Assembly (NCBI GenBank): GCA_038063615.1
Contig: JBBTUT010000002.1
Coordinates: 48,746 to 112,745 of the forward strand
Direction: 5' to 3'
Origin: Patescibacteria group bacterium
GTDB lineage: Bacteria; Patescibacteriota; Minisyncoccia; Phycocordibacterales; UBA1550
DNA length: 64,000 bases
Shown: piece after piece, positions 3,518 to 60,238 of the stretch
How positions within the stretch are numbered: the stretch's first letter is position 1
Layout: every line of letters begins with the position of its first letter
The notes under the pieces: generated by a model
Database searches by the model: none
What the model was told of the DNA's origin: nothing
The model's input: only the letters and a program-made list of their open reading frames with translations
Program-made: the position numbers and the translations under genes

Positions 3518-4927
3518 CTATTTCAACCCCTCCTCAAACAGCACCTTGAGCGTTCCCGGGTTTGCGGAGCCTTTGCTTGCTTTCATCCCCTGCCCGATGA
3601 AAAATTGGAAGAGGGCGGTTTTTCCGGATTTGTAATCGGCGACGATGGTTGGGTTTGCGGCGACGATTTCGGCGACGATCTTTTTGAGCGCTTCGATGTC
3701 GTTTTTCTGGATGAAATTGTGTTTTTGCGCAATCTCGTGCGGGTGCCCGCCTTCGGCGTACAAGATGGCGAGCGTGTCTTTCGCACCGCGCGAAGAGAGG
3801 TCGCCTGCTTTGATCATCGTCACGAGGTCGGCAAGCCCCGCCCCTGTCACACCACCAAGAGTCCCATTCTCCTTCATTAAGCCAGCGAGGTCAGAGGTGA
3901 TGTAGTTTTCAATAAGCGCGATCGAGGGACGGTCGCTACCCGTAGCGACCACCGCATCTTCAAAAAGCCCGCCGAGTGTTGCGTCTATGGTAAATATCTC
4001 CGCATTCTCCGGCTTCACGCCGTATTCGCGCACGAGACGCGCGCGTTTCTCCCACGGGAGCTCCGGCAGTGTCGCCGAGAGTGCTTCTTTTGAAAATTCG
4101 GGAATCTCGCTCAACTTCAATTTTGGCAAGTCAGGGTCAGGGAAATAGCGATAGTCGTGCGCGCTTTCTTTCTTGCGTTGCGAAAATGTCGCCTGTTTGT
4201 TCTCGTCCCATCCGCGCGTCTCCTGTACTATCGTTTCGCCCTTGTCCAACATCTTCGTCATTCGTTCCACCTCATATGCGATAGCGCGCTCCACCGAGCG
4301 AAATGAATTCAAGTTTTTCACCTCCACTTTCGTACCGAGCGCATCGGTTTTTGATATTGAAATATTAGCCTCGACACGCATTTCGCCTTTTTCCATATTC
4401 GCATCGGACACACCGAGTGTGCGAAGGAGAAGCTGAAGCTCGCGCGCAAAGTTTCCCGCCTCTTCCGCACTCTTGATTGTGGGTGTCGTCACGAGCTCCA
4501 TGAGCGGCACACCTGCGCGATTGAAGTCCACAAGACTTCCCTCCGAGCCCTCATGCGACGAGCTCGCCGTATCTTCTTCGAGATGCACGCGCTCAATAAC
4601 GACACCGTTCAAAGCGCCCCCCGACACGAGCGGATATTTGTACTGGCTAATCTGGTACCCCTTTGGAATGTCAGGATAAAAATAGTTCTTGCGGTCAAAC
4701 TCGGTAAAGTCCGCAAGTGTACTCCCGAGTGCCACGCCCACGCGCAAAACATGCTTCACCGCCTCGCGGTTGATTACCGGCAATGTCCCCGGATGCGCCA
4801 TACACACGGGGCAAATATTCACATTCGGCTCTGCATTGAAAGGATCATTCGCCGAATTGCAGAACATCTTCGTCTTTGTTTTCAGCTCGGCGTGGACCTC
4901 GAGACCCACGGTTAGTTTATAACTCAT
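3518..4927 (-). CDS. gatB: Asp-tRNA(Asn)/Glu-tRNA(Gln) amidotransferase subunit B
   Basis: MSYKLTVGLEVHAELKTKTKMFC...YFYPDIPKGYQISQ, with a GatB/YqeY C-terminal domain. Confidence 0.9.
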   Translation of the reverse strand: MSYKLTVGLEVHAELKTKTKMFCNSANDPFNAEPNVNICPVCMAHPGTLPVINREAVKHVLRVGVALGSTLADFTEFDRKNYFYPDIPKGYQISQYKYPLVSGGALNGVVIERVHLEEDTASSSHEGSEGSLVDFNRAGVPLMELVTTPTIKSAEEAGNFARELQLLLRTLGVSDANMEKGEMRVEANISISKTDALGTKVEVKNLNSFRSVERAIAYEVERMTKMLDKGETIVQETRGWDENKQATFSQRKKESAHDYRYFPDPDLPKLKLSEIPEFSKEALSATLPELPWEKRARLVREYGVKPENAEIFTIDATLGGLFEDAVVATGSDRPSIALIENYITSDLAGLMKENGTLGGVTGAGLADLVTMIKAGDLSSRGAKDTLAILYAEGGHPHEIAQKHNFIQKNDIEALKKIVAEIVAANPTIVADYKSGKTALFQFFIGQGMKASKGSANPGTLKVLFEEGLK

Positions 4928-6604: not shown

Positions 6605-6636
6605 ATCGCAATACTATCACGACCGTTCTCTGGAGT

Positions 6637-7611
6637 CTATACCACCACTTTCAAAAGTTTTAGCAACTCGTCTTGGAATGATTTCATCACCGCATCATCG
6701 AGAATTGAGATTGCGAAGACCTCCGGGCGAATTTTTTTTATCTGCTTTGTCACTTCGGCAACGCGTTCGGGCGTGACCATATCGGTTTTTGTGAGGACAA
6801 TAATCTCGCGCTTGTCGGCGAGCACTTTGTCAAAAGCGGAGAGTTCTTTGCGGACGGTTTCGTAGACAGCCATCGGGTCTTCGTTTTCGAGCGACACCAA
6901 GTGCGCGAGCATTTTTGTGCGCTTCACATGGCGGAGGAATTTATGCCCGAGCCCCTTCCCCTCGCTTGCGCCCTCGATAAGTCCCGGGATGTCCGCGATG
7001 ATGAAGCCGAAACATTCGCCGAGATTCGGCTCGAGTGTCGTAAAGGCATAGTCTGCAGTTTTTGCGCTCGCACGAGTGAGAGCGTTCAGCAAGCTCGACT
7101 TCCCCGCGTTCGGAAGACCAATGAGCCCGATGTCCGCGACTATTTGAAGCTCTATATGGAAATCCGCCTCGTGCCCTTTTGTGCCGGGGATGTGCTCCTT
7201 TGGCGAACGGTTGGTCGAGCTTTTGAAATGCTCGTTACCATACCCGCCACGACCACCCGTAAGCAAGACAATCTCCTCGCCTTCTTTCAAAAGCGACACC
7301 TCCTCGCCCGTATTCAAGTTGCACACGATAGAGCCGATAGGCAGATCAAGTACAAGGTCCTCCCCATTTTTCCCATGGAGACTGTCGCTTCCCCCATCTC
7401 CGCCTCGTTCGGCGAGAAACTCTTTCTGGTGACGATATTTTGAAAGTATGTGCACATCGCGCACGGCGCGCACATGCACCTCGCCTCCGTGTCCGCCGTC
7501 GCCGCCGGAAGGACCGGCAAATTCTTTGCTTTTGATATGCTTCCAGCGCTCGACGCCATTTCCGCCGTCGCCCGCTTTCATATGAATTGTCATTTCGTCG
7601 ATAAAGGCCAT
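6637..7611 (-). CDS. obg: GTPase Obg/CgtA
   Basis: Obg fold with GDGGNG repeats and IADIGLIGLPNAGKSSLLNALT...DIPGLIEGASEGKGLG. Confidence 0.9.
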   Translation of the reverse strand: MAFIDEMTIHMKAGDGGNGVERWKHIKSKEFAGPSGGDGGHGGEVHVRAVRDVHILSKYRHQKEFLAERGGDGGSDSLHGKNGEDLVLDLPIGSIVCNLNTGEEVSLLKEGEEIVLLTGGRGGYGNEHFKSSTNRSPKEHIPGTKGHEADFHIELQIVADIGLIGLPNAGKSSLLNALTRASAKTADYAFTTLEPNLGECFGFIIADIPGLIEGASEGKGLGHKFLRHVKRTKMLAHLVSLENEDPMAVYETVRKELSAFDKVLADKREIIVLTKTDMVTPERVAEVTKQIKKIRPEVFAISILDDAVMKSFQDELLKLLKVVV

Positions 7612-49564: not shown

Positions 49565-49723
49565 AAAGACCCGCTGTGTAAAAATTTTTGTAACGAAACT
49601 TTCAATTTTCTCGGCGAGGCGAAGAGAAAATTCTAAAGAATATCGGGATATTTTGAAGAATTTTATCGAAGCCATAGCCGAAAATTTAAAGTTGTAGTAA
49701 AAATTTTTACACAGCGGGTCTTT
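49565..49723. repeat. 25 bp perfect inverted repeats (aaagacccgctgtgtaaaaattttt / aaaaatttttacacagcgggtcttt) separated by 109 nt. The left arm abuts the LTD-gene start codon and the right arm overlaps the stop of the upstream ATPase gene.
   Basis: Read from the sequence. Confidence 0.7.
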
Positions 49724-51696
49724 TAATCATCCCCGCGCAAGATTGCGGTGAGCACATCTTCGGGAACTTCTCTGACTTTCGGTTCTTCGCGTTTTTGTTC
49801 CGGTGCGCGCGGCGACTCCGCACGGTTTCCTTCGCTTGCTTGCGGTACTGCTTTTGGCGCATGCGCTGATTGTGTGCGCGCATGCGGTGGCGGTGGAACA
49901 ACCGAGGCAACGGGTTTCTTTTCTGTCCCAATGACTCCCGCGAGCGCATCTTTCAAGCTCCCCAAATTCCCCACGCTCGGACCTTTGCTTTTCACGGGCA
50001 CAAAACCGCCATTCTCCGGTCTTGATTGAGCGAGGGTTGAAAGGGGGACGGCTTTTCCTGCGTCCTTTTGTGCGGAATAATTTTCGCGAGCCTCAATTTT
50101 CGGGATGTCCTTGAATGCCTGCGCAAACGGCTTTTCGAGCTTCTCCGGTCTGGATATTTCCTCTCGTTTTGGTTGTGGCTTTTCAATTCGCTCGGCTTGT
50201 CCGCCTAGGTTTTTCTCAGCAAAATTTTGACGAGGTCGCTCGAACATCGCATTGCTGTTTCGCTTTACAAGTGGCGCGCGTTCCGCCGGCGTTTCTTTTT
50301 TTGGTACATAGTCCGTGCGCGGAGCAGTGCGTTCAGGTACTTGCGCATGTCGCGCTTCAATGGACACTGCACGACGCGATTCTGCAGAATCGTCATTTCC
50401 TCCGCCAAACCATTCGGCAATATCCTTTTCCACTTTCTCGCGCGGATGCCCATAGAGCTCGCGCGACGACTTGATGACTTCATCGCGAAGCGATTTTGCA
50501 GGTGCCGCGATAGGTCCGAGCGTGACCGCCGAGAATGGGTGCGAAGCAACGCCATCGATCATGAGTTTCAGATAAATCTGCGTGAAGCCCAGGCTCACCA
50601 TATCCTCTGCTGTAAAAACGGGAGCATATTCTTTTTCAAGTTCCTCTGCATCCGGCGCGCCGACGCGAAACATAATCTGTGTGCCGACATTGCCAAAAAC
50701 CGCATCGGCAACCTTCTCATCCATTTGTTTGATGTACTGGTGCGCAATAGTCAAAGCGAGCTTGTATTTGCGCGCCTCGGACAAAATATCCGCAAATGAC
50801 TCGTTGGCAAAGTTCTGAAACTCATCCACATACATATAAAAGTTGGGGAGCTTTTTGAGCTCACCCTCGGTGAGGTCCGCGCGCGACATCGCCGCAAGAT
50901 AGATCTTGGTAATAATCATGCCTCCCAAAAGGGCAGCGTTCCCCTCGCCAAGCTGACCTTTTGAAAGATTCACAATGAGGATCTTTCGCTCGTCCATCAT
51001 TGTGCGCAGGTCAAAGCTCGAGTGTGGCTGTCCGATGATATTTCTGATGAGCGGATTTGAGGTGAACTGCCCGAGCTTGTTTTGCACAGCGGGAGTCGCC
51101 TCTGCTGCAAACTTTTCGGTATACTTTGCAAACTCCTCAACCCAATAGGCCTTTACCGACGGGTCCTTCACATTGTCCACGACTTTCTTTCGGTACACTT
51201 TGTCGGTGAGCATTCTGTTCACGCCAAGAAGTGTCGAGTCTGGGTATTCAAGAAGAGCGAGGAGGCAGTTCATAAGAATGTATTGCATTCTGTCTGAGAA
51301 AGATTCTGCTCCAAAAATCTTTTTGAACGCACTGAGAAGGCCATTGGCAACGAGATGTCGCTTGTCTTTACCTACATCCTCCATCACATTGAAAGAAATA
51401 GGGTAATCAGAATCAAACGGTGCAAAGTAAACAACATCTTTTATTCGGTCTTCTGGAATATAATCAAGAAGGAGCGCTGCGGATTTGCCGTGCGGGTCGA
51501 TGAACGCAAACCCTTCGCCGTTCTTGATATCCTGTACCACCATGTTTTCAATACAGGTCGACTTCCCCATACCGGTCTTCCCGATGATGTACATATGCCG
51601 CGTGCGGTCCTCCGCCTTGATCCCAAACGGAATTCGTTTGTTGCGCCGATCCGTCTCGGCGAAATAGGTGATGCGATTTTTGTCGTAGAGGTACAT
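49723..51696 (-). CDS. TraD/VirD4/TrwB-family (type IV coupling-protein-like) P-loop ATPase, soluble, with a long low-complexity C-terminal tail
   Basis: YIIGKTGMGKST Walker A, FAFIDPHGK, and YMYVDEFQNF Walker B. The last 250 aa are P/E/K/A-rich and likely disordered. Confidence 0.5.
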   Translation of the reverse strand: MYLYDKNRITYFAETDRRNKRIPFGIKAEDRTRHMYIIGKTGMGKSTCIENMVVQDIKNGEGFAFIDPHGKSAALLLDYIPEDRIKDVVYFAPFDSDYPISFNVMEDVGKDKRHLVANGLLSAFKKIFGAESFSDRMQYILMNCLLALLEYPDSTLLGVNRMLTDKVYRKKVVDNVKDPSVKAYWVEEFAKYTEKFAAEATPAVQNKLGQFTSNPLIRNIIGQPHSSFDLRTMMDERKILIVNLSKGQLGEGNAALLGGMIITKIYLAAMSRADLTEGELKKLPNFYMYVDEFQNFANESFADILSEARKYKLALTIAHQYIKQMDEKVADAVFGNVGTQIMFRVGAPDAEELEKEYAPVFTAEDMVSLGFTQIYLKLMIDGVASHPFSAVTLGPIAAPAKSLRDEVIKSSRELYGHPREKVEKDIAEWFGGGNDDSAESRRAVSIEARHAQVPERTAPRTDYVPKKETPAERAPLVKRNSNAMFERPRQNFAEKNLGGQAERIEKPQPKREEISRPEKLEKPFAQAFKDIPKIEARENYSAQKDAGKAVPLSTLAQSRPENGGFVPVKSKGPSVGNLGSLKDALAGVIGTEKKPVASVVPPPPHARTQSAHAPKAVPQASEGNRAESPRAPEQKREEPKVREVPEDVLTAILRGDD

Positions 51697-55460: not shown

Positions 55461-55547
55461 AGCTCCTCCTCCTTCATTTTTTTGATTTACTGTTTCTACC
55501 CAAATACTAGCATTTTAATGGACAAAGTCAAGACTAAAATCTGTGCG

Positions 55548-55617
55548 CGATGGAGGCACTCGAACATGGGACCTCGTCGTTATCAGGGCGACGGGAGTGC
55601 CCGCATCCGTCGCCCGC
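55548..55617 (-). pseudogene. tRNA-Ile-like pseudo-copy D: D-arm 3' part, a 28 nt GC hairpin insert (GGCGACGGATGCGGGCACTCCCGTCGCC), anticodon loop CTGATAA, a degenerate T-arm and a 3' acceptor strand
   Basis: Aligned by eye to the intact tRNA-Ile. The T-stem strands are not complementary and there is no 5' acceptor strand. Confidence 0.4.
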
Positions 55618-55644
55618 TCTATCTAAATTAAGTTCATTGTGCGC

Positions 55645-55670
55645 GATCCAGGACTCGAACATGGGAAACT
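55645..55670 (-). pseudogene. Partial tRNA-Ile copy: T-arm plus 3' acceptor strand (CCCATGTTCGAGTCCTGGATCGCGCA), 17 nt after the intact gene
   Basis: Near-identical to the 3' 26 nt of the tRNA-Ile, with one T-stem mismatch. Confidence 0.5.
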
Positions 55671-55686
55671 TATCTGCTTTTCAAAG

Positions 55687-55760
55687 TGCGCGATCCAGGA
55701 CTCGAACCTGGGACCTCGTCATTATCAGTGACGCGCTCTAACCACCTGAGCTAATCGCGC
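55687..55760 (-). tRNA. tRNA-Ile (anticodon GAU), 74 nt, no encoded CCA
   Basis: GCGCGATTAGCTCAGGTGGTTAGAGCGCGTCACTGATAATGACGAGGTCCCAGGTTCGAGTCCTGGATCGCGCA. A 7 bp acceptor stem, GTGG D-loop, anticodon loop CTGATAA and TTCGAGT T-loop. Confidence 0.85.
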
Positions 55761-55785
55761 ACTTTGAAAACCAATTTTAAAAACC

Positions 55786-55855
55786 TCGTCGTGATTAGGG
55801 CGACGGGAGTGCCCGGCATCCGTCGCCCGCTCTAACCACCTGAGCTAATCGCGCT
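55786..55855 (-). pseudogene. tRNA-Ile-like pseudo-copy A: an intact 5' acceptor strand and D-arm, then a 29 nt GC hairpin insert and an altered anticodon region (CTAATCA), with no T-arm
   Basis: GCGCGATTAGCTCAGGTGGTTAGAGCG is identical to the intact gene's first 27 nt, followed by GGCGACGGATGCCGGGCACTCCCGTCGCC CTAATCA CGACGAGGT. Confidence 0.4.
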
Positions 55856-55917
55856 TTTCAGCACTTGGAGAACATACCATAAAACACCCCTTTACGCAAC
55901 GATTTCGTTAAAAAAGC

Positions 55918-55946
55918 CGGGTACGCAATGCGTACCCGACCATACT
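55918..55946 (-). terminator. Rho-independent terminator on the minus strand (cgggtacgc att gcgtacccg + TTTTTT) after the two mini-ORFs
   Basis: Read from the sequence. Confidence 0.6.
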
Positions 55947-56142: not shown

Positions 56143-56310
56143 TTATTTCAGCGTGCTAACGAACCATAAAAGGAAATCTGCCGTTAGGTCTAAAGAAAGA
56201 TAGATCAGAGCGGAAGCCAGCAATGCGGCAATCAGTAGAGTCACCTCCATCTTCACGCCAATACTGCCATCGCTCCATTCTCTTTTCTTCTCGTTAAATT
56301 TCTTCATCAT
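56143..56310 (-). CDS. Mini-ORF 1: a 55 aa peptide with a charged N-terminus and one C-terminal TM helix, preceded by a strong Shine-Dalgarno sequence GGAGGTGG
   Basis: Manual translation gives MMKKFNEKKREWSDGSIGVKMEVTLLIAALLASALIYLSLDLTADFLLWFVSTLK. Confidence 0.35.
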   Translation of the reverse strand: MMKKFNEKKREWSDGSIGVKMEVTLLIAALLASALIYLSLDLTADFLLWFVSTLK

Positions 56311-56382
56311 CCACCTCCGTTAATAGGATAGTAAAAAAACAATCTCCGTCGATTAAAGCACGGCACCGTGCAAAAGTCAAAC

Positions 56383-56410
56383 AAAAAACCCGCCATATGG
56401 CGGGTTTTTT
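56383..56410. terminator. Strong bidirectional rho-independent terminator (cccgcc atat ggcggg with A and T runs) about 255 nt past the 16S 3' end
   Basis: Read from the sequence. Confidence 0.75.
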
Positions 56411-57026
56411 GTTTGAAAAATTGCATGTATGTAATATCTAAAAATTATTTGTTGAGTATTCTTTCTTTTGTTCCGTTCTTCGCCTTGCTTTGCCGTCCGT
56501 TTTAAAAAAACAGGCGATTAAGCAAGGTCTTGCGTACCGGTAACCCTTCCGGTAAGGGAGCCCCTTTTTGAGATGGGAGGGCCTTCATCTTAATTCCTTG
56601 CGGAAAAAACCGACCAATTCAGCGTATCGCAACCACGAGGGCGTACGATACAACATTATATTTTGAATTGATTCACGACCAGCTTCCGCTAGCCGTGCCT
56701 TGTTACGACTTAGTCCTTGTTACCAAGCTTACCTTAGGTCCACGCGAGGTGGAACTTCGGGTACTCTCGGCTCCCCTGACTTGACGGGCGGTGAGTACAA
56801 GACTTGAGAACGTATTCACCGCAGTATAGCTGACCTGCGATTACTAGCGATTCCAACTTCATGAGGTCGAGTTTCAGCCCTCAATCCGAACTGGGGCCAC
56901 CTTTATTAGGATTAGCTCAGGGTTACCCCGTCGCGACCCGTTGTAGTGGCCATTGTATCAAGTGTGCAGCCCAGGGTATCAAAGGGACATGCTGACCTGG
57001 CGTCATCCTCTCCTTCCTCCCCCGCC

Positions 57027-57153
57027 TTTATTCGCGAAGCGAACAAAGGCAAGTCAAAAGTTAAAAGTCACAAGTCGAAAGTAGATGCATTTTGCATTCA
57101 CTTTTTACTTTACACTTTCTACTTTCCACTTGCCTTTGCGCTTCGTGCGCAAA
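57027..57153 (-). other. 16S insertion 1: an AT-rich extended hairpin of about 116 extra nt replacing the small loop before the GGAGGAAGG region (E. coli position about 1165)
   Basis: Sense strand reads TTTGCGCACGAAGCGCAAAGGCAAGTGGAAAGTAGAAAGTGTAAAGT...ACTTTCGACTTGTGACTTTTAACTTTTGACTTGCCTTTGTTCGCTTCGCGAATAAA, full of (G/C)AAAGT repeats. No ORF. Confidence 0.6.
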
Positions 57154-57388
57154 GGCGGGGGCAGTCTCGTCTGACACATATAACAGACAACGAGGGTTGC
57201 GTTCGTTGACCCACTTAAGGGGACAGTTCAAACCACGAACTGACGACGGCCATGCATCACCTGTCCATAAGTCCTTGCGGAGTTACCGAGTTTCCTCGGT
57301 CTTTCTTATGGATTTCTAACCCTGGTGAGGTTCTTCGTTTACCATCGAATTAAGCCACCTGATCCACCGCTTGTGCAAGTCCCCGTCT

Positions 57389-57420
<32 letters not shown>

Positions 57421-57918
57421 TCCCAGGCGGATCTCTTAACGCGTTAGCTTCGCCTCTCAGAGGGTCGATACTCCGAAAAGCTAGAGATCATCGTTTAGGG
57501 CGTAGACTACTGGGGTATCTAATCCCATTCGCTACCTACGCTTTCGTGTTTCAGTGTCAGAAATGTGCCAGTTTGCTGCCTTCGCATTTGGTGTTCCCCA
57601 TGATATCAACGGATTTCACCCCTACACCATGAGTTCCGCAAACCTCTCACACCCTCTAGTCGTGCCGTTTCAGCCGCAATTCTCCGGTTAAGCCGGAGGC
57701 TTTGACGAATGACTAACACGACCACCTACACACCCTTTACGCCCAATAATTCCGGATAACGCTTGGGGTACTCGTATTACCGCTGCTGCTGGCACGAGTT
57801 TAGCAACCCCTTATTCATGAGGTACTATCAAAAATTTCTCCCTCATAAAAGATCTTTACATCCCGAAAGACTTCATCGATCACGCGGCGTCGCTCCATCA
57901 GACTTTCGTCCATTGTGG

Positions 57919-57949
<31 letters not shown>

Positions 57950-58189
57950 ATGGTCCGTGTCTCAGTACCATCGGTGGGGGTCAGGCTCTCACCTCCCCTA
58001 AGCGTCATAGCCTTGGTAAGCCATTACCTTACCAACTAGCTGATACTCAATAAGCCAAGCCCCAAGCGATAAATCTTTACTCCGAAGAGACTATCAAGTA
58101 TTAGCCCGCCTTTCGGCGGGTTATTCCTGACTTGGGGGTTTGTACCTATTTATTACTACCTCGTTCGCAACTCCGAGCATCACGCTACG

Positions 58190-58292
58190 CGCGATACACG
58201 AGTCAAAAGTCGAAAGTCCTTAAAGTCCAAAGTAAATACGAATTGTATTCACTTTTGACTTTCGACTTTATAAACTTTTTGACTTGTGCATC
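58190..58292 (-). other. 16S insertion 2: an AT-rich hairpin expansion of helix 6 (V1 region), about 95 extra nt, with the same AAAGT/GACTTT repeat flavour
   Basis: Stem base CCGAGCATCAC ... GTGATGCTCGG. The interior reads CAAGTCAAAAAGTTTATAAAGTCGAAAGTCAAAAGTGAATACAATTCGTATTTACTTTGGACTTTAAGGACTTTCGACTTTTGACTCG. Confidence 0.6.
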
Positions 58293-58674
58293 ACACCCAA
58301 TGTGATGCTCGGCGTTCTACTTGCATGCCTTATCCACGCCGCCAGCGTTCATCCTGAGCTAGGATCAAACTCTCTTAAAAAGAGCATTTGAATTAACTCT
58401 CAAGAACGGAACAAAAGAAAAAATACTCTTTTGTATTCTTGTTATTTTACTCACAAGATCTGCCCAACTGCTAAAATCGAACAGATCCTTTTTTGGACTT
58501 GCAATCCAAACTTTAGATGTTTACATATATGCAATTGTCAAAGGTCGTTTTGCTTTCGGGCAAATACCCTGAAAGCAAAAGCGCTCATTCCTAAGCGCTT
58601 GAGCAGTATATACTTGTGTCGAAAAGAAGTCAAGCGCGAATTTTAGGCATATTTTATAGGCAAAATAAAGGTTT

Positions 58675-59896: not shown

Positions 59897-60238
59897 TTAT
59901 CCCTGTATAAGCGTGAGCAATTTCCCCTCAACATCATCAGCCACGGCAGGTGGTGCTTTCTCTACAAATACCAAGTCTCGCTTGCTCCAATCCATTGTCC
60001 GTACCTGGTCGGCAAGAATTACTCCCTTAACTTTTTCTCCCTCATATAAAACATCGAAAACATGACCTTTAATTTTTGATGTTATTGGACAAAAAAGAGC
60101 GCGACCACTTATTGCGTTATATGCATCCAAAGAAACAACCATCGCGGGGCGACGACCACTTTGCTCATGCCCCTTTGTCGGATCAAAATCAATCCAAACA
60201 ATATCTCCACGACACGGTATATATTTTACTCTTGCCAT
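59897..60238 (-). CDS. mazF: MazF/PemK-family endoribonuclease toxin
   Basis: RGDIVWIDFDPTKGHEQSGRRPAMVVS is the canonical MazF/PemK motif. Confidence 0.85.
   Translation of the reverse strand: MARVKYIPCRGDIVWIDFDPTKGHEQSGRRPAMVVSLDAYNAISGRALFCPITSKIKGHVFDVLYEGEKVKGVILADQVRTMDWSKRDLVFVEKAPPAVADDVEGKLLTLIQG

What the first reader, a model, noticed from the sequence alone, without database searches (positions are those of the whole stretch)
55548..55855. tRNA-Ile(GAU) surrounded by three partial copies, two carrying a 28-29 nt GC hairpin insert in place of the anticodon stem 5' strand
On the minus strand the order is: copy A (5' acceptor plus D-arm, then GGCGACGGATGCCGGGCACTCCCGTCGCC), the intact tRNA-Ile, a 26 nt 3' fragment, then copy D (D-arm 3' part, the same hairpin, CTGATAA, a degenerate T-arm). 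Copies A and D are complementary halves.

Three explanations fit: a second tRNA-Ile gene destroyed by insertion of a hairpin element and later rearrangement; attachment-site scars from repeated integration/excision at the tRNA 3' end; or, less likely, a non-canonical intron-containing or split tRNA. The tRNA sits in an unlinked rrn context, with 16S upstream and no 23S following.
Basis: seen in the sequence. Interest (0 to 1): 0.55.

Follow-up and report, generated by a model that had tools for sequence, protein, structure and literature searches.

The report
Russian-doll tRNA-Ile locus in Patescibacteria
A working isoleucine tRNA gene of an ultra-small groundwater bacterium sits inside broken pieces of older copies of itself, and this layout recurs in nearly half of the related genomes sampled and appears not to have been described.

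Summary
On the minus strand lie copy A (55854-55783), an intact tRNA-Ile(GAU) (55760-55687), fragment C (55666-55639) and copy D (55621-55543). A and D each carry a 29/28-nt hairpin where the anticodon-stem 5' strand should be. Four independent assemblies reproduce the layout.

It is not a one-off scar. Of 95 Patescibacteria tRNA-Ile loci sampled, 44 have ordered partial copies: 5' pieces upstream, 3' pieces downstream (Fisher 3e-16). About 20 carry the same module (TAGAGCG + hairpin + CTRATAAYGACGAGG), always beside tRNA-Ile on the same strand. The hairpin stems covary across 16S divergence of 82-88%.

The inner tRNA sits on a leader/trailer stalk inserted into a loop of an older tRNA-Ile copy. 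That older shell is often a different allele from the inner copy. Only the inner copy is a tRNA by ARAGORN or Rfam.

No integrase, island, intron or viral match was found. A close relative has cleanly lost the 3' shell, so that part is dispensable.

Best reading: serial disruption-with-replacement of the tRNA gene, with all pieces co-transcribed as one precursor. What the shell and hairpin do is unresolved. I found no description of this architecture in Rfam or in the literature searched.

The parts
55915..55941 (-). Intrinsic terminator closing the upstream unit. It separates the 16S and small-ORF region from the tRNA unit.
   Evidence: 12-bp stem followed by a T run.
55871..55899 (-). Putative promoter of the whole nested unit: TTGCGT (55899-55894), a 17-nt spacer, and an extended -10 TGgTATGTT (55879-55871). 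It lies about 17 nt upstream of copy A.
   Evidence: Read from the sequence. The same TTGCG-N17-TGGTATAnT is conserved upstream of the first tRNA piece in L065, L054, L092 and L063. The consensus scan did not list it (its -35 matches only 3 of 6).
55783..55854 (-). Copy A, an outer shell piece. It comprises the acceptor 5' strand plus D arm (55854-55828), a 29-nt hairpin (55827-55799), a pseudo-anticodon loop CTAATCA (55798-55792) and CGACGAGGT (55791-55783).
   Evidence: CM R1 scores it 46.9 bits. Homologous modules occur in L065 and L054.
55761..55782 (-). Linker TTTTAAAATTGG plus the stalk 5' arm TTTTCAAAGT (55770-55761). The arm pairs with the trailer and extends the acceptor stem of the inner tRNA.
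   Evidence: Inverted repeat I2, 20 nt at 95%. 10 contiguous extra base pairs. Present in the MFE fold. The arm is identical in L065 and L054.
55687..55760 (-). Functional tRNA-Ile(GAU). No CCA is encoded (…GCGCA|CTTT).
   Evidence: ARAGORN. Rfam RF00005 at 71 bits, E=1.7e-13. Identical over its whole 75 nt (BLAST) to the tRNA-Ile of many Patescibacteria.
55667..55686 (-). Trailer. The stalk 3' arm CTTTGAAAA (55686-55678, with discriminator A55687 pairing to T55761) is followed by the linker GCAGATAAGTT.
   Evidence: TTTGAAAAGCA is conserved in L065, L092 and L063.
55639..55666 (-). Fragment C: a T arm (one mismatch in the stem) plus the acceptor 3' strand and discriminator. It is the 3' end of the shell whose 5' part is copy A.
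   Evidence: 27/28 identity to positions 48-75. Its L065 homologue has a T stem CCAAG/CTTGG and an acceptor strand CATGCGC that pair with L065's own copy A rather than with the inner tRNA.
55543..55621 (-). Copy D, the outermost 3' shell. It comprises TAGAGCG (55621-55615), a 28-nt hairpin (55614-55587), CTGATAA, CGACGAGGTCC, a degenerate T arm and ATCGCGCAC.
   Evidence: CM R1 scores it 54.5 bits. Its hairpin is 25/28 identical to that of L111, with one compensatory pair. A degenerate counterpart exists in L065.
55504..55531 (-). Promoter-like site of the next gene (a 152-aa ORF, 55460-55002). It marks the downstream limit of the tRNA unit.
   Evidence: TTGACT-16-TAGTAT with TG.

Best explanation
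The region is one transcription unit holding a nested ('Russian-doll') tRNA-Ile locus, an architecture that recurs across Patescibacteria.

Only the innermost copy (55760-55687) is a tRNA. It sits at the tip of a leader/trailer helix (the stalk) that extends its acceptor stem. That stalk-plus-tRNA cassette lies inside a loop of an older tRNA-Ile copy of a different allele. Here the split falls in the variable region, between copy A and fragment C. A further 3' shell (copy D) lies outside.

In the shells, the anticodon-stem 5' strand is replaced by a roughly 28-nt hairpin, so they cannot decode.

Inferred origin: repeated disruption-with-replacement. A tRNA cassette lands in the resident same-isotype tRNA gene, and only events that bring a working copy survive. 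Local duplication, deletion and decay follow.

Inferred working: the promoter upstream of A drives a precursor of about 330 nt. The stalk isolates the inner cloverleaf and is probably cut by a double-strand-specific RNase such as RNase III. RNase P and RNase Z (or exonucleases) plus the CCA-adding enzyme finish the tRNA. The shell pieces pair with each other and are by-products or a folding scaffold.

Shown here: anatomy, recurrence, ordered fragments, covariation, allele differences, absence of a second tRNA. Inferred: transcription as one unit, the processing enzymes, the insertion mechanism, and any role of the shell.
For: - **Anatomy and reproducibility:**
- **Recurrence:** 44 of 95 Patescibacteria tRNA-Ile loci have same-strand partial copies, against 3 of 20 controls. 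Upstream pieces map to the 5' half (32 vs 8); downstream pieces map to the 3' half (45 vs 0); Fisher 3e-16.
- **Complementary breakpoints in loops:** 1-20|21-75, 1-38|36-75, 1-44|48-77, 1-28|46-75.
- **Stalk:** 20 of 94 Patescibacteria loci (0 of 20 controls) have leader/trailer helices of at least 6 and up to about 35 bp. G.U pairs are biased to the sense strand (73 vs 32), and the sense duplex is more stable in 15 of 20. This fits selection on the transcript.
- **Hairpin module:** about 20 loci, including a closed 0.75-Mb genome (CP011215). It occurs only next to tRNA-Ile, on the same strand, in 870 kb searched.
- **Covariation:** all 11 pairs change on both sides; 49 double-change cells against 17.9±3.2 in shuffles, 0 of 500 reaching the observed value. 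Carriers differ by 82-88% in 16S.
- **Shell and inner copy are different alleles:** window, L065, L072, L092, L094/L066 and L041, each with a self-consistent paired acceptor stem.
- **Same layout for other tRNAs:** Leu, Gln and Phe. In L118 a foreign-type tRNA-Leu sits inside a resident one.
- **Promoter:** it sits upstream of the first shell piece in the window's clade.
- **Fold:** the MFE of the 327-nt precursor keeps the inner cloverleaf on its stalk and pairs A with D (z=-4.25).
- **Dispensability:** L066 has cleanly lost the 3' shell that L094 keeps.
Against: - No expression or processing data exist. The single transcript, the RNase III step and the by-product status are all inferred.
- No mobile cassette, transposase, integrase or phage carrying this tRNA was found, so the insertion mechanism is unknown.
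- The D-loop nests share one junction (GGT|TAGAGCG) and arms beginning TTTTAAAA. That fits one ancient event inherited vertically rather than recurrent invasion.
- Survival of shell sequence across order-level divergence in streamlined genomes suggests constraint. So does conservation of non-tRNA residues in A (CTAATCACGACGAGGT is identical in the window and L065). A pure fossil does not explain this.
- The hairpin helix has almost no sense-strand G.U pairs (1 in 188) and folds better on the antisense strand in 18 of 21 cases. That does not fit a simple role in the sense transcript.
Confidence: 0.55

Rival explanations
1. The shell is itself a functional RNA. After the inner tRNA is released, A plus C (or A plus D) remain as a two-piece tRNA-like molecule with an acceptor stem, D arm, T arm, a 12-bp hairpin and an exposed anticodon-like strand. 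It might act as a decoy, regulator or processing scaffold, recognised by tRNA-binding factors.
For: - The module is conserved across 16S divergence of 82-88%, with covarying hairpin stems.
- Shell acceptor and T stems stay fully paired even where they differ from the inner tRNA: L065, L072, L092, L094.
- CTAATCACGACGAGGT differs from the real tRNA at 3 positions yet is identical in the window and L065 and near-identical in L054.
- The module associates exclusively with tRNA-Ile, on the same strand.
- It is retained in a 0.75-Mb closed genome.
- A hairpin persists in the leader of L060 even though the tRNA-like parts are gone.
Against: - About 80% of the sampled Patescibacteria lack the module.
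- L066 lost the whole 3' module relative to its close relative L094.
- Many shell parts are degenerate: D's T arm here, L107's acceptor, L065's D.
- The layouts are heterogeneous: nested, tandem, upstream only or downstream only.
- The hairpin shows no sense-strand G.U pairs.
- The paired shell stems match functional alleles seen elsewhere (L020, L060), so they may simply be inherited.
Confidence: 0.2
2. The pieces are classical attachment-site scars: repeated integrase-mediated integration and excision, or decay, of mobile elements at the tRNA-Ile gene left attL/attR-type duplications.
For: - Lone 3' fragments (positions 57-75, 50-75 or 33-75) lie 20-250 nt downstream of the intact tRNA in many loci. 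Their breakpoints fall in the anticodon loop and T loop, which by general knowledge (Williams 2002) are the usual integrase crossover sites.
- L051 shows a near-identical repeat of the 3' flank after both the tRNA and the fragment.
- A disrupting integration rescued by an element-borne tRNA is documented in mycobacteriophages (PMC10865867).
Against: - All pieces lie within 312 nt, with no island between them.
- No integrase was found among the neighbouring ORFs.
- 5' fragments lie upstream (32 in all), which reconstituting integration does not produce.
- The leader and trailer arms are complementary.
- No viral contig carries this tRNA or the module.
Confidence: 0.12
3. The locus is a DNA-level rearrangement hot spot with no RNA role. 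Replication stalling at a heavily transcribed, stem-rich tRNA gene triggers template switching. That creates nested partial duplications and palindromes, and quasipalindrome correction keeps the hairpin arms matched without selection.
For: - The hairpins are near-perfect Watson-Crick palindromes, with 1 G.U in 188 pairs.
- Inverted tRNA fragments also occur, for example GGGACCTCGTCAT in L093 and L096.
- Tandem repeats of whole modules occur in L096, L030 and L083.
- The deletion or insertion of the module between L066 and L094 is flanked by the TTCAAA microhomology.
Against: - The fragment order and same-strand bias are far from random.
- The hairpin keeps the same position, a length of about 27-29 nt and a closing G-C pair across lineages.
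- The stalk shows a sense-strand G.U bias typical of RNA-level selection.
- Insertions fall in tRNA loops.
Confidence: 0.1
4. Copies A, C and D encode a second functional tRNA that is split, permuted or intron-containing and is assembled by splicing.
For: The pieces together cover a whole tRNA body. The insertion sites (D loop, anticodon loop, variable loop, T loop) resemble non-canonical archaeal intron positions (general knowledge). Patescibacteria do carry tRNA introns (PMC13011429).
Against: - ARAGORN in intron mode finds only the intact gene. The in-silico joined A+C gives only a contrived low-threshold call, and A+D gives nothing.
- Rfam tRNA does not hit A or D even at E<=10, and there is no group I intron hit.
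- Removing the hairpin leaves either no 5' anticodon strand (most relatives) or a 9-nt loop (window).
- An intact tRNA-Ile is present in every case.
Confidence: 0.02

Closest known systems
tRNA-dependent lysogeny (Guerrero-Bustamante & Hatfull 2024, PMC10865867)
   Same: A tRNA gene is split into a 5' and a 3' fragment by an insertion that does not rebuild it. The inserted DNA carries a same-isotype tRNA that replaces the lost function. This explains why Ile sits in Ile and Leu in Leu.
   Different: Here there is no phage, integrase or island. The insert is only a stalk plus a tRNA (about 110 nt). The arrangement is inherited across orders, occurs in several nested layers, and carries a covarying hairpin. 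No viral contig has this tRNA.
Classical tRNA-gene attL/attR duplications left by tyrosine-integrase elements (general knowledge, Williams 2002)
   Same: Direct repeats of the tRNA 3' part lie downstream of an intact tRNA gene, with breakpoints in the anticodon loop or T loop.
   Different: Here 5' fragments lie upstream, the flanks around the intact tRNA are complementary, and the repeats bound no island.
Archaeal split, permuted and multi-intron tRNA genes (Nanoarchaeum, Thermoproteales; general knowledge)
   Same: The tRNA genes are in pieces, the interruptions fall in loops including non-canonical positions, complementary flanking sequences bring the pieces together, and the hosts are ultra-small episymbionts.
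   Different: This is a bacterium. The pieces do not rebuild a functional tRNA, because the anticodon stem 5' strand is missing. An intact copy is always present. No bulge-helix-bulge motif or splicing endonuclease was shown.
Group I introns in Patescibacteria tRNA genes (Nakagawa et al. 2026, PMC13011429)
   Same: Same phylum, with tRNA genes interrupted in the anticodon loop and missed by standard tools.
   Different: There is no group I intron signature. The insert is itself a tRNA. The paper does not mention nested or partial tRNA copies.
rRNA processing stalks and RNase III-excised intervening sequences (general knowledge)
   Same: A long leader/trailer helix encloses the mature RNA. Its sequence is free to vary while pairing is kept, with G.U pairs on the sense strand.
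   Different: Here the helix encloses a single tRNA and emerges from a loop of a tRNA-like shell. RNase III cleavage was not tested.

Membership tests
Canonical bacterial tRNA gene (Rfam RF00005 / ARAGORN) | A full cloverleaf scoring above the family threshold | tested here: met
   For the inner copy 55760-55687 only: 71 bits against a gathering score of 29, and ARAGORN tRNA-Ile(gat).
Canonical bacterial tRNA gene (Rfam RF00005 / ARAGORN) | Copies A, C and D, alone or joined, score as a tRNA | tested here: not met
   There is no tRNA hit for A or D at E<=10. ARAGORN with introns and relaxed thresholds finds nothing credible.
Integrase attachment-site duplication bounding a mobile element | Direct repeats of the tRNA 3' part flank an inserted element that encodes an integrase | tested here: not met
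   The repeats lie within 312 nt and enclose only a tRNA. No integrase or recombinase domain was found in the 9 neighbouring ORFs tested or in the gene list of L003.
Integrase attachment-site duplication bounding a mobile element | Only 3'-side (or only 5'-side) fragments are duplicated | tested here: not met
   5' pieces lie upstream and 3' pieces downstream of the intact gene, here and in relatives.
tRNA-dependent lysogeny type disruption-with-replacement | The host tRNA is split without reconstruction and a same-isotype tRNA is carried by the insert | tested here: met
   The shell halves flank an intact same-isotype tRNA for Ile, Leu, Gln and Phe. Shell and inner alleles differ in at least 7 loci.
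tRNA-dependent lysogeny type disruption-with-replacement | The insert is a prophage or an integrase-bearing element | tested here: not met
   The insert is only about 110 nt. No viral contig carries the tRNA or the module.
Group I intron-containing tRNA | A group I ribozyme fold within the interruption | tested here: not met
   No Intron_gpI hit at gathering threshold or at E<=10 in the window region, nor in 7 related loci.
Archaeal-type split or BHB-intron tRNA | Removing the intervening sequences restores a functional cloverleaf | tested here: not met
   The anticodon-stem 5' strand is absent in most relatives. In the window a 9-nt loop would result.
Archaeal-type split or BHB-intron tRNA | A bulge-helix-bulge motif at the junctions and a splicing endonuclease in the genome | not tested
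   No BHB motif is evident in the MFE fold, but no dedicated search was run. The genome beyond the 64-kb window is not available.
Dispersed palindromic repeat (REP/MITE-like) | Many copies are scattered through the genome | tested here: not met
   The hairpin occurs only at A and D in 64 kb. The module is found only beside tRNA-Ile in 870 kb of related loci.
Structured RNA helix under selection (hairpin) | Compensatory changes keep the pairing | tested here: met
   11 of 11 pairs change on both sides. The covariation score is 0.434 against 0.149 in shuffles, 0 of 500 reaching it. The CM alignment leans towards the structure, and the register is imperfect (70.5% of cells paired).
Structured RNA helix under selection (hairpin) | G.U intermediates on the transcribed (sense) strand | tested here: not met
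   1 G.U in 188 sense pairs against 10 in 201 on the antisense strand. The antisense fold is more stable in 18 of 21 cases.
RNase III-type processing stalk | A long leader/trailer helix with sense-strand G.U pairs | tested here: met
   In the window the contiguous extension is only 10 bp.
RNase III-type processing stalk | Cleavage by RNase III | not testable with these tools
   This needs an in vitro assay or end-mapping of transcripts.

The most novel reading that the evidence does not exclude
Patescibacteria have a so far undescribed class of nested tRNA precursors (tRNA-in-tRNA). In one version, the outer tRNA-like shell with its covarying hairpin is a functional two-piece RNA acting as decoy, regulator or processing scaffold. 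In the other, the stalk-flanked tRNA cassette is a protein-free selfish element. It would spread by DNA uptake and recombination into the universally conserved same-isotype tRNA gene, leaving dated layers of older alleles.
Probability: 0.3. Interest if true: 0.8.

Novelty: new variant of a known kind. Interest (0 to 1): 0.62.

Why it matters
If the nested layout is what it appears to be, three things follow.

- tRNA genes in a major bacterial radiation are repeatedly overwritten from within. The layers preserve older alleles, giving a readable record of tRNA replacement and horizontal transfer in organisms that cannot be cultured.
- Gene finders report only the inner tRNA, so the precursors of a large share of Patescibacteria tRNA-Ile genes (and some Leu, Gln and Phe genes) are far more structured than assumed. 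This bears on how bacteria with reduced RNase sets mature their tRNAs.
- The hairpin module and the 85-nt element are conserved, unannotated motifs that could be modelled and surveyed directly.

The locus also offers a bacterial counterpart to the tRNA genes in pieces of DPANN archaea, which share the episymbiotic lifestyle.

Tried and rejected
- **Hairpin and junction patterns in viral contigs:** no hits. The tRNA-Ile core pattern in viral contigs also gave no hits.
- **Metagenome scan for TAGAGCG+hairpin:** only the same Hainich organism (L008). The four other hits were chance matches, either in GC-rich tRNA 3' ends on the other strand or in coding sequence.
- **Rfam:** nothing at gathering or E-value threshold for the shell, the hairpin or the 85-nt element.
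- **Intron-mode and relaxed ARAGORN, and in-silico joined shells:** no credible second tRNA.
- **Terminator/antiterminator switch in copy A** (hairpin versus CCcCGTCG/CGACGaGG followed by a T run): this works only for the window sequence. Relatives lack the complementarity, so I dropped it as a general mechanism.
- **Specifier-like AUC in the hairpin loop:** present in some relatives (L027, L107, L064) but not conserved. Rejected.
- **dif/Xer-like 11-6-11 site:** the arm sequences differ completely between genomes. Unlikely.
- **Decayed tandem array:** rejected because of the strict order of fragments and the complementary breakpoints.
- **MAFFT alignment of the modules (A2):** it put the two arms out of register. 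The CM realignment (A5) is better but still mixed, so I also folded each hairpin separately.
- **Literature searches:** six searches found no description of nested or partial tRNA copies in Patescibacteria.
Full report
**1. What is there**

Reading the minus strand, the region runs as follows.
- A terminator at 55941-55915.
- A promoter-like TTGCGT-N17-TGgTATGTT at 55899-55871.
- Copy A at 55854-55783.
- A linker and a 10-nt arm, TTTTCAAAGT.
- The intact tRNA-Ile(GAU) at 55760-55687.
- The complementary arm (A)CTTTGAAAA.
- Fragment C at 55666-55639.
- A 17-nt spacer.
- Copy D at 55621-55543.
- The promoter of the next gene.

ARAGORN and Rfam recognise only the intact copy. Copy A matches the tRNA exactly over positions 1-27. 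It then carries a 29-nt hairpin in place of the anticodon-stem 5' strand, followed by CTAATCA-CGACGAGGT. Copy D starts at the D-stem 3' strand (TAGAGCG), carries the same hairpin minus one C, then CTGATAA-CGACGAGGTCC, a broken T arm and the acceptor 3' strand. Fragment C is a T arm plus the acceptor 3' strand.

The one correction is that A and D overlap by about 55 nt rather than being complementary halves. A plus C form one complete tRNA-like body, and A(1-20) plus D form another.

**2. It is real DNA**

The window comes from a Patescibacteria population in Hainich groundwater well H41. Independent assemblies reproduce it base for base. L008 carries A and the first 54 nt of the intact gene. 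L003, L001 and L002 carry the intact gene from position 21, then C, D and the downstream genes. The two sets overlap in the anticodon arm, which is unique to the intact copy. Contigs break here because of the repeats.

**3. It is not unique**

Most were Patescibacteria, with Planctomycetota as a natural control.

- 44 of 95 Patescibacteria loci have at least one same-strand partial copy of 12 nt or more within 450 nt, against 3 of 20 controls. Three of the four control MAGs outside Planctomycetota (L014, L062, L089) also show such fragments; I suspect, but did not test, that these contigs are mis-binned.
- The order is strict. Upstream pieces map to the 5' half of the tRNA (32 vs 8) and downstream pieces to the 3' half (45 vs 0), Fisher p = 3e-16.
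- Breakpoints are often complementary and fall in loops: the D loop (GGT|TAGAGCG in L027, L038, L107, L096, L094), the anticodon loop (L054, L082, L072) and the variable region (window, L065, L114).
- This is the signature of an intact tRNA inserted into another tRNA gene, not of a decayed tandem array.
- Some loci have two or three layers (L054, L064, window).
- The same layout occurs for tRNA-Leu, tRNA-Gln and tRNA-Phe.

**4. The stalk**

In 20 of 94 Patescibacteria loci (0 of 20 controls) the leader and trailer of the intact tRNA pair for at least 6 contiguous bp beyond the acceptor stem. With bulges the helix often reaches 25-35 bp. These are mostly the loci with shell pieces on both sides.

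The arm sequences differ between genomes but stay complementary. G.U pairs are twice as frequent on the sense strand as on the antisense strand (73 vs 32), and the sense duplex is more stable in 15 of 20 loci. This points to selection on the transcript, as for rRNA processing stalks.

In the window the stalk is 10 bp (I2). It is identical in L065 and L054.

**5. The hairpin module**

A regular expression and a covariance model (R1) find TAGAGCG + 22-32-nt hairpin + CT[GA]AT[AC]A[TC]GACGAGG in about 20 loci. One is the closed genome of a Campbellbacteria (CP011215, 752,630 bp). Every copy lies within about 300 nt of tRNA-Ile on its strand, and none was found elsewhere in 870 kb.

Each hairpin forms 8-12 bp with a closing G-C pair. 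The stem sequences are unrelated between lineages:
- GGCGACGG/CCGTCGCC in the window
- GGCAACGG/CCGTTGCC in L111
- GTGAAAACC/GGTTTTCAC in L054
- GAGAATGC/GCATTCTC in L027
- GCGGAATTGTCC/GGACAATTCCGC in L083

On the model-based alignment all 11 pairs show changes on both sides. There are 49 double-change cells against 17.9±3.2 in shuffles, with 0 of 500 shuffles reaching the observed value. That alignment leans towards the structure and its register is imperfect. Carriers with a 16S gene in the locus differ by 82-88%, which is family- to order-level divergence.

Two points do not fit simple vertical inheritance. The window's hairpin is 25/28 identical to that of L111 (16S 85.9%). It is unlike that of L027 (16S 88.5%).

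**6. An unexplained asymmetry**

The hairpin helices contain 1 G.U in 188 sense-strand pairs. The reverse complement folds with 10 G.U in 201 pairs. It is more stable in 18 of 21 cases and never less stable. This is the opposite of the stalk. Counting independent lineages, the excess is about 6 to 1, which is suggestive rather than conclusive.

It may mean that the hairpin is kept at the DNA level, for example by quasipalindrome correction. It may instead be kept on the other strand, or the pattern may reflect a mutational bias. I could not resolve this.

**7. Shell and inner copy are different alleles**

In the window the shells have the anticodon stem CGTCG/CGACG, as in the working tRNA-Ile of L020. 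The inner gene has CGTCA/TGACG.

| Locus | Shell | Inner tRNA |
|---|---|---|
| L065 | acceptor (A)CGCGTG/CATGCGC (6/7 paired), T stem CCAAG/CTTGG | acceptor GCGCGAT/ATCGCGC, T stem CCAGG/CCTGG |
| L072 | GCGGCTG/CAGCCGC | differs from the shell |
| L092 | GTGCGAT/ATCGCAC | differs from the shell |
| L094 | GCAGCTG/CAGCTGC | differs from the shell |
| L041 | GGGCGAT/ATCGCCC | differs from the shell |

In L065 the shell acceptor is paired at 6 of 7 positions and its T stem fully; the stems of L072, L092, L094 and L041 are fully paired. Two of these shell stems are seen as working alleles in other genomes: the GTG type in L060, L013 and L051 and GCAGCTG in L020. In L118 a Patescibacteria-type tRNA-Leu with an intact anticodon arm carries a quite different tRNA-Leu(CAG) in its D loop.

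The two halves of a shell therefore come from one former gene, and the inner copy is not simply its duplicate.

**8. Turnover**

L066 and L094 are close relatives whose flanks are about 90% identical. L094 has the full 3' shell with hairpin. L066 lacks exactly that 89-nt block between two TTCAAA repeats, but keeps the 5' shell piece and the stalk arm. At least this part of the shell is therefore dispensable on short time scales.

Several findings argue the other way, for constraint:
- L038 and L064 have unalignable flanks yet share the shell's tRNA-derived parts and an 85-nt insert at 85-89% identity.
- The window and L065 share CTAATCACGACGAGGT exactly, although it differs from the real tRNA at three positions.
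- L060 keeps a leader hairpin without any tRNA-like remains.

**9. Hypotheses tested and not supported**

- Integrase scar: no integrase or recombinase domain in the neighbouring ORFs, and no island.
- Viral origin: no viral contig carries the tRNA, the junctions or the hairpin.
- Intron: no group I intron or other Rfam family.
- Second tRNA: none found in intron mode.
- Dispersed repeat: the hairpin is not scattered through the window.

**10. How it most likely works**

Shown here: the anatomy, its recurrence, the fragment order, the stalk, the hairpin covariation, the allele differences, and the fact that only one copy is a tRNA.

Inferred:
- The promoter conserved upstream of the first shell piece (window, L065, L054, L092) drives one precursor of about 330 nt.
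- Its predicted fold keeps the inner cloverleaf on the stalk. It pairs A with D through both the acceptor strands and the two hairpins, which are mutually complementary because each is a palindrome (z = -4.25).
- The stalk is opened by a double-strand-specific RNase. RNase P and RNase Z or exonucleases trim the tRNA, and CCA is added, since it is not encoded.
- The shell pieces are left over.

On origin, the best-fitting known logic is disruption-with-replacement, as in tRNA-dependent lysogeny (PMC10865867). An insertion into a tRNA gene is survivable only if it brings a same-isotype tRNA, which explains the isotype match without any targeting. Repetition on the new inner copy gives the layers.

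What delivers a cassette of about 110 nt is unknown. DNA uptake is plausible for Patescibacteria (PMC12455944) but was not tested.

**11. Comparison and novelty**

The locus shares features with several known systems:
- integrase att duplications
- tRNA-dependent lysogeny
- archaeal tRNA genes in pieces
- Patescibacteria tRNA introns (PMC13011429)
- rRNA processing stalks

It fails a defining feature of each (see the membership table). I found no description of nested tRNA copies, of the hairpin module or of the 85-nt element, either in Rfam 15 or in six literature searches. The library does not cover all journals.

I rate it a new variant of a known kind (tRNA-gene disruption and replacement, tRNA-derived repeats). 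There is a real chance that it is more than that.

**12. Verdict**

The finding is one instance of a widespread, apparently undescribed locus architecture. Its origin is reasonably constrained, but the present function of the shell and hairpin is open.

Noticed in passing
window 56661-58380 (-); insertions at about 58173-58312 and 57022-57158: The 16S rRNA gene is 1720 nt against a 1533-position model. Compared with the 16S of L111 it has two extra blocks, of about 140 nt after position 68 and about 137 nt (against 36) near positions 1223-1359. The gene is followed by terminators, not by 23S.
   Followed up: partly
window 56377-56416: A perfect 20+20-nt palindrome (AAAAAACCCGCCAT/ATGGCGGGTTTTTT) looks like a bidirectional terminator between the 16S gene and the tRNA unit. 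It drew many weak leader and sRNA hits in Rfam.
   Followed up: no
window 56143-56310 (-): A small ORF with a good ribosome-binding site encodes a 55-aa hydrophobic peptide (MMKKFNEKKREWSDGSIGVKMEVTLLIAALLASALIYLSLDL...). It lies between the 16S gene and the tRNA unit.
   Followed up: no
window 59897-60238 (-) and 49723-51696 (-): A PemK/MazF-type toxin lies 4 kb upstream of the tRNA unit and a VirD4/TraG-like coupling ATPase 4 kb downstream. No integrase was seen nearby.
   Followed up: partly
L038 5171-5253 (-), L064 6940-7021 (+), L080 2074-2157 (+), L118 3492-3572 (-): A conserved element of about 85 nt (GAGGAGCGAATAC..GCAAGACCTTGAG..GAAAGGTnTACAGCTCCTGTAAGGAG), at 80-89% identity, is inserted in the outer dead copies of tRNA-Ile and tRNA-Leu: just before the T arm in L038, L064 and L118, and before the variable arm in L080. 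The surrounding flanks are unalignable. It has no Rfam match.
   Followed up: partly
L054 2481-2569 (-), L104 615-718 (+), L072 about 6620-6660 (+): Inserts sit at the same T-loop position (GGTT|CGAGTC) of outer tRNA-Ile and tRNA-Leu copies. L054 and L104 share ..GGGGTCGCGG..GTGAC before CGAGTC. The L054 insert begins with the first 31 nt of the 85-nt element. Many loci have a lone 57-75 fragment 110-180 nt downstream of the tRNA.
   Followed up: partly
L043 5316-5387, L080 1962-2044, L118 3623-3707, L123 2702-2784, L108 2573-2646: Other tRNAs (Gln-CTG, Leu-CAG, Phe-GAA) in Patescibacteria are nested in the same way, with 5' pieces upstream, complementary leader and trailer arms and 3' pieces downstream. 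In L118 the inner tRNA-Leu is a different type from the shell.
   Followed up: partly
L066 versus L094 (tRNA-Ile loci): In two closely related genomes, one has the full 3' shell module and the other lacks exactly that 89-nt block between two TTCAAA repeats. This is a recent gain or loss.
   Followed up: yes
L096 about 4240-4640 (-), L030 7653-7810 (+), L083 2440-2700 (+): Whole hairpin modules are repeated in tandem upstream of the intact tRNA-Ile: a 161-nt unit twice in L096, a 92-nt unit twice in L030, and three diverged modules in L083. L093 and L096 also carry an inverted copy of tRNA positions 38-50.
   Followed up: partly
window 55587-55614 and 55799-55827: Because both hairpins are the same near-palindrome, the MFE fold of the precursor pairs A's hairpin with D's as a long-range duplex of about 25 bp rather than as two local hairpins. 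Such a duplex could itself be an RNase III substrate.
   Followed up: partly
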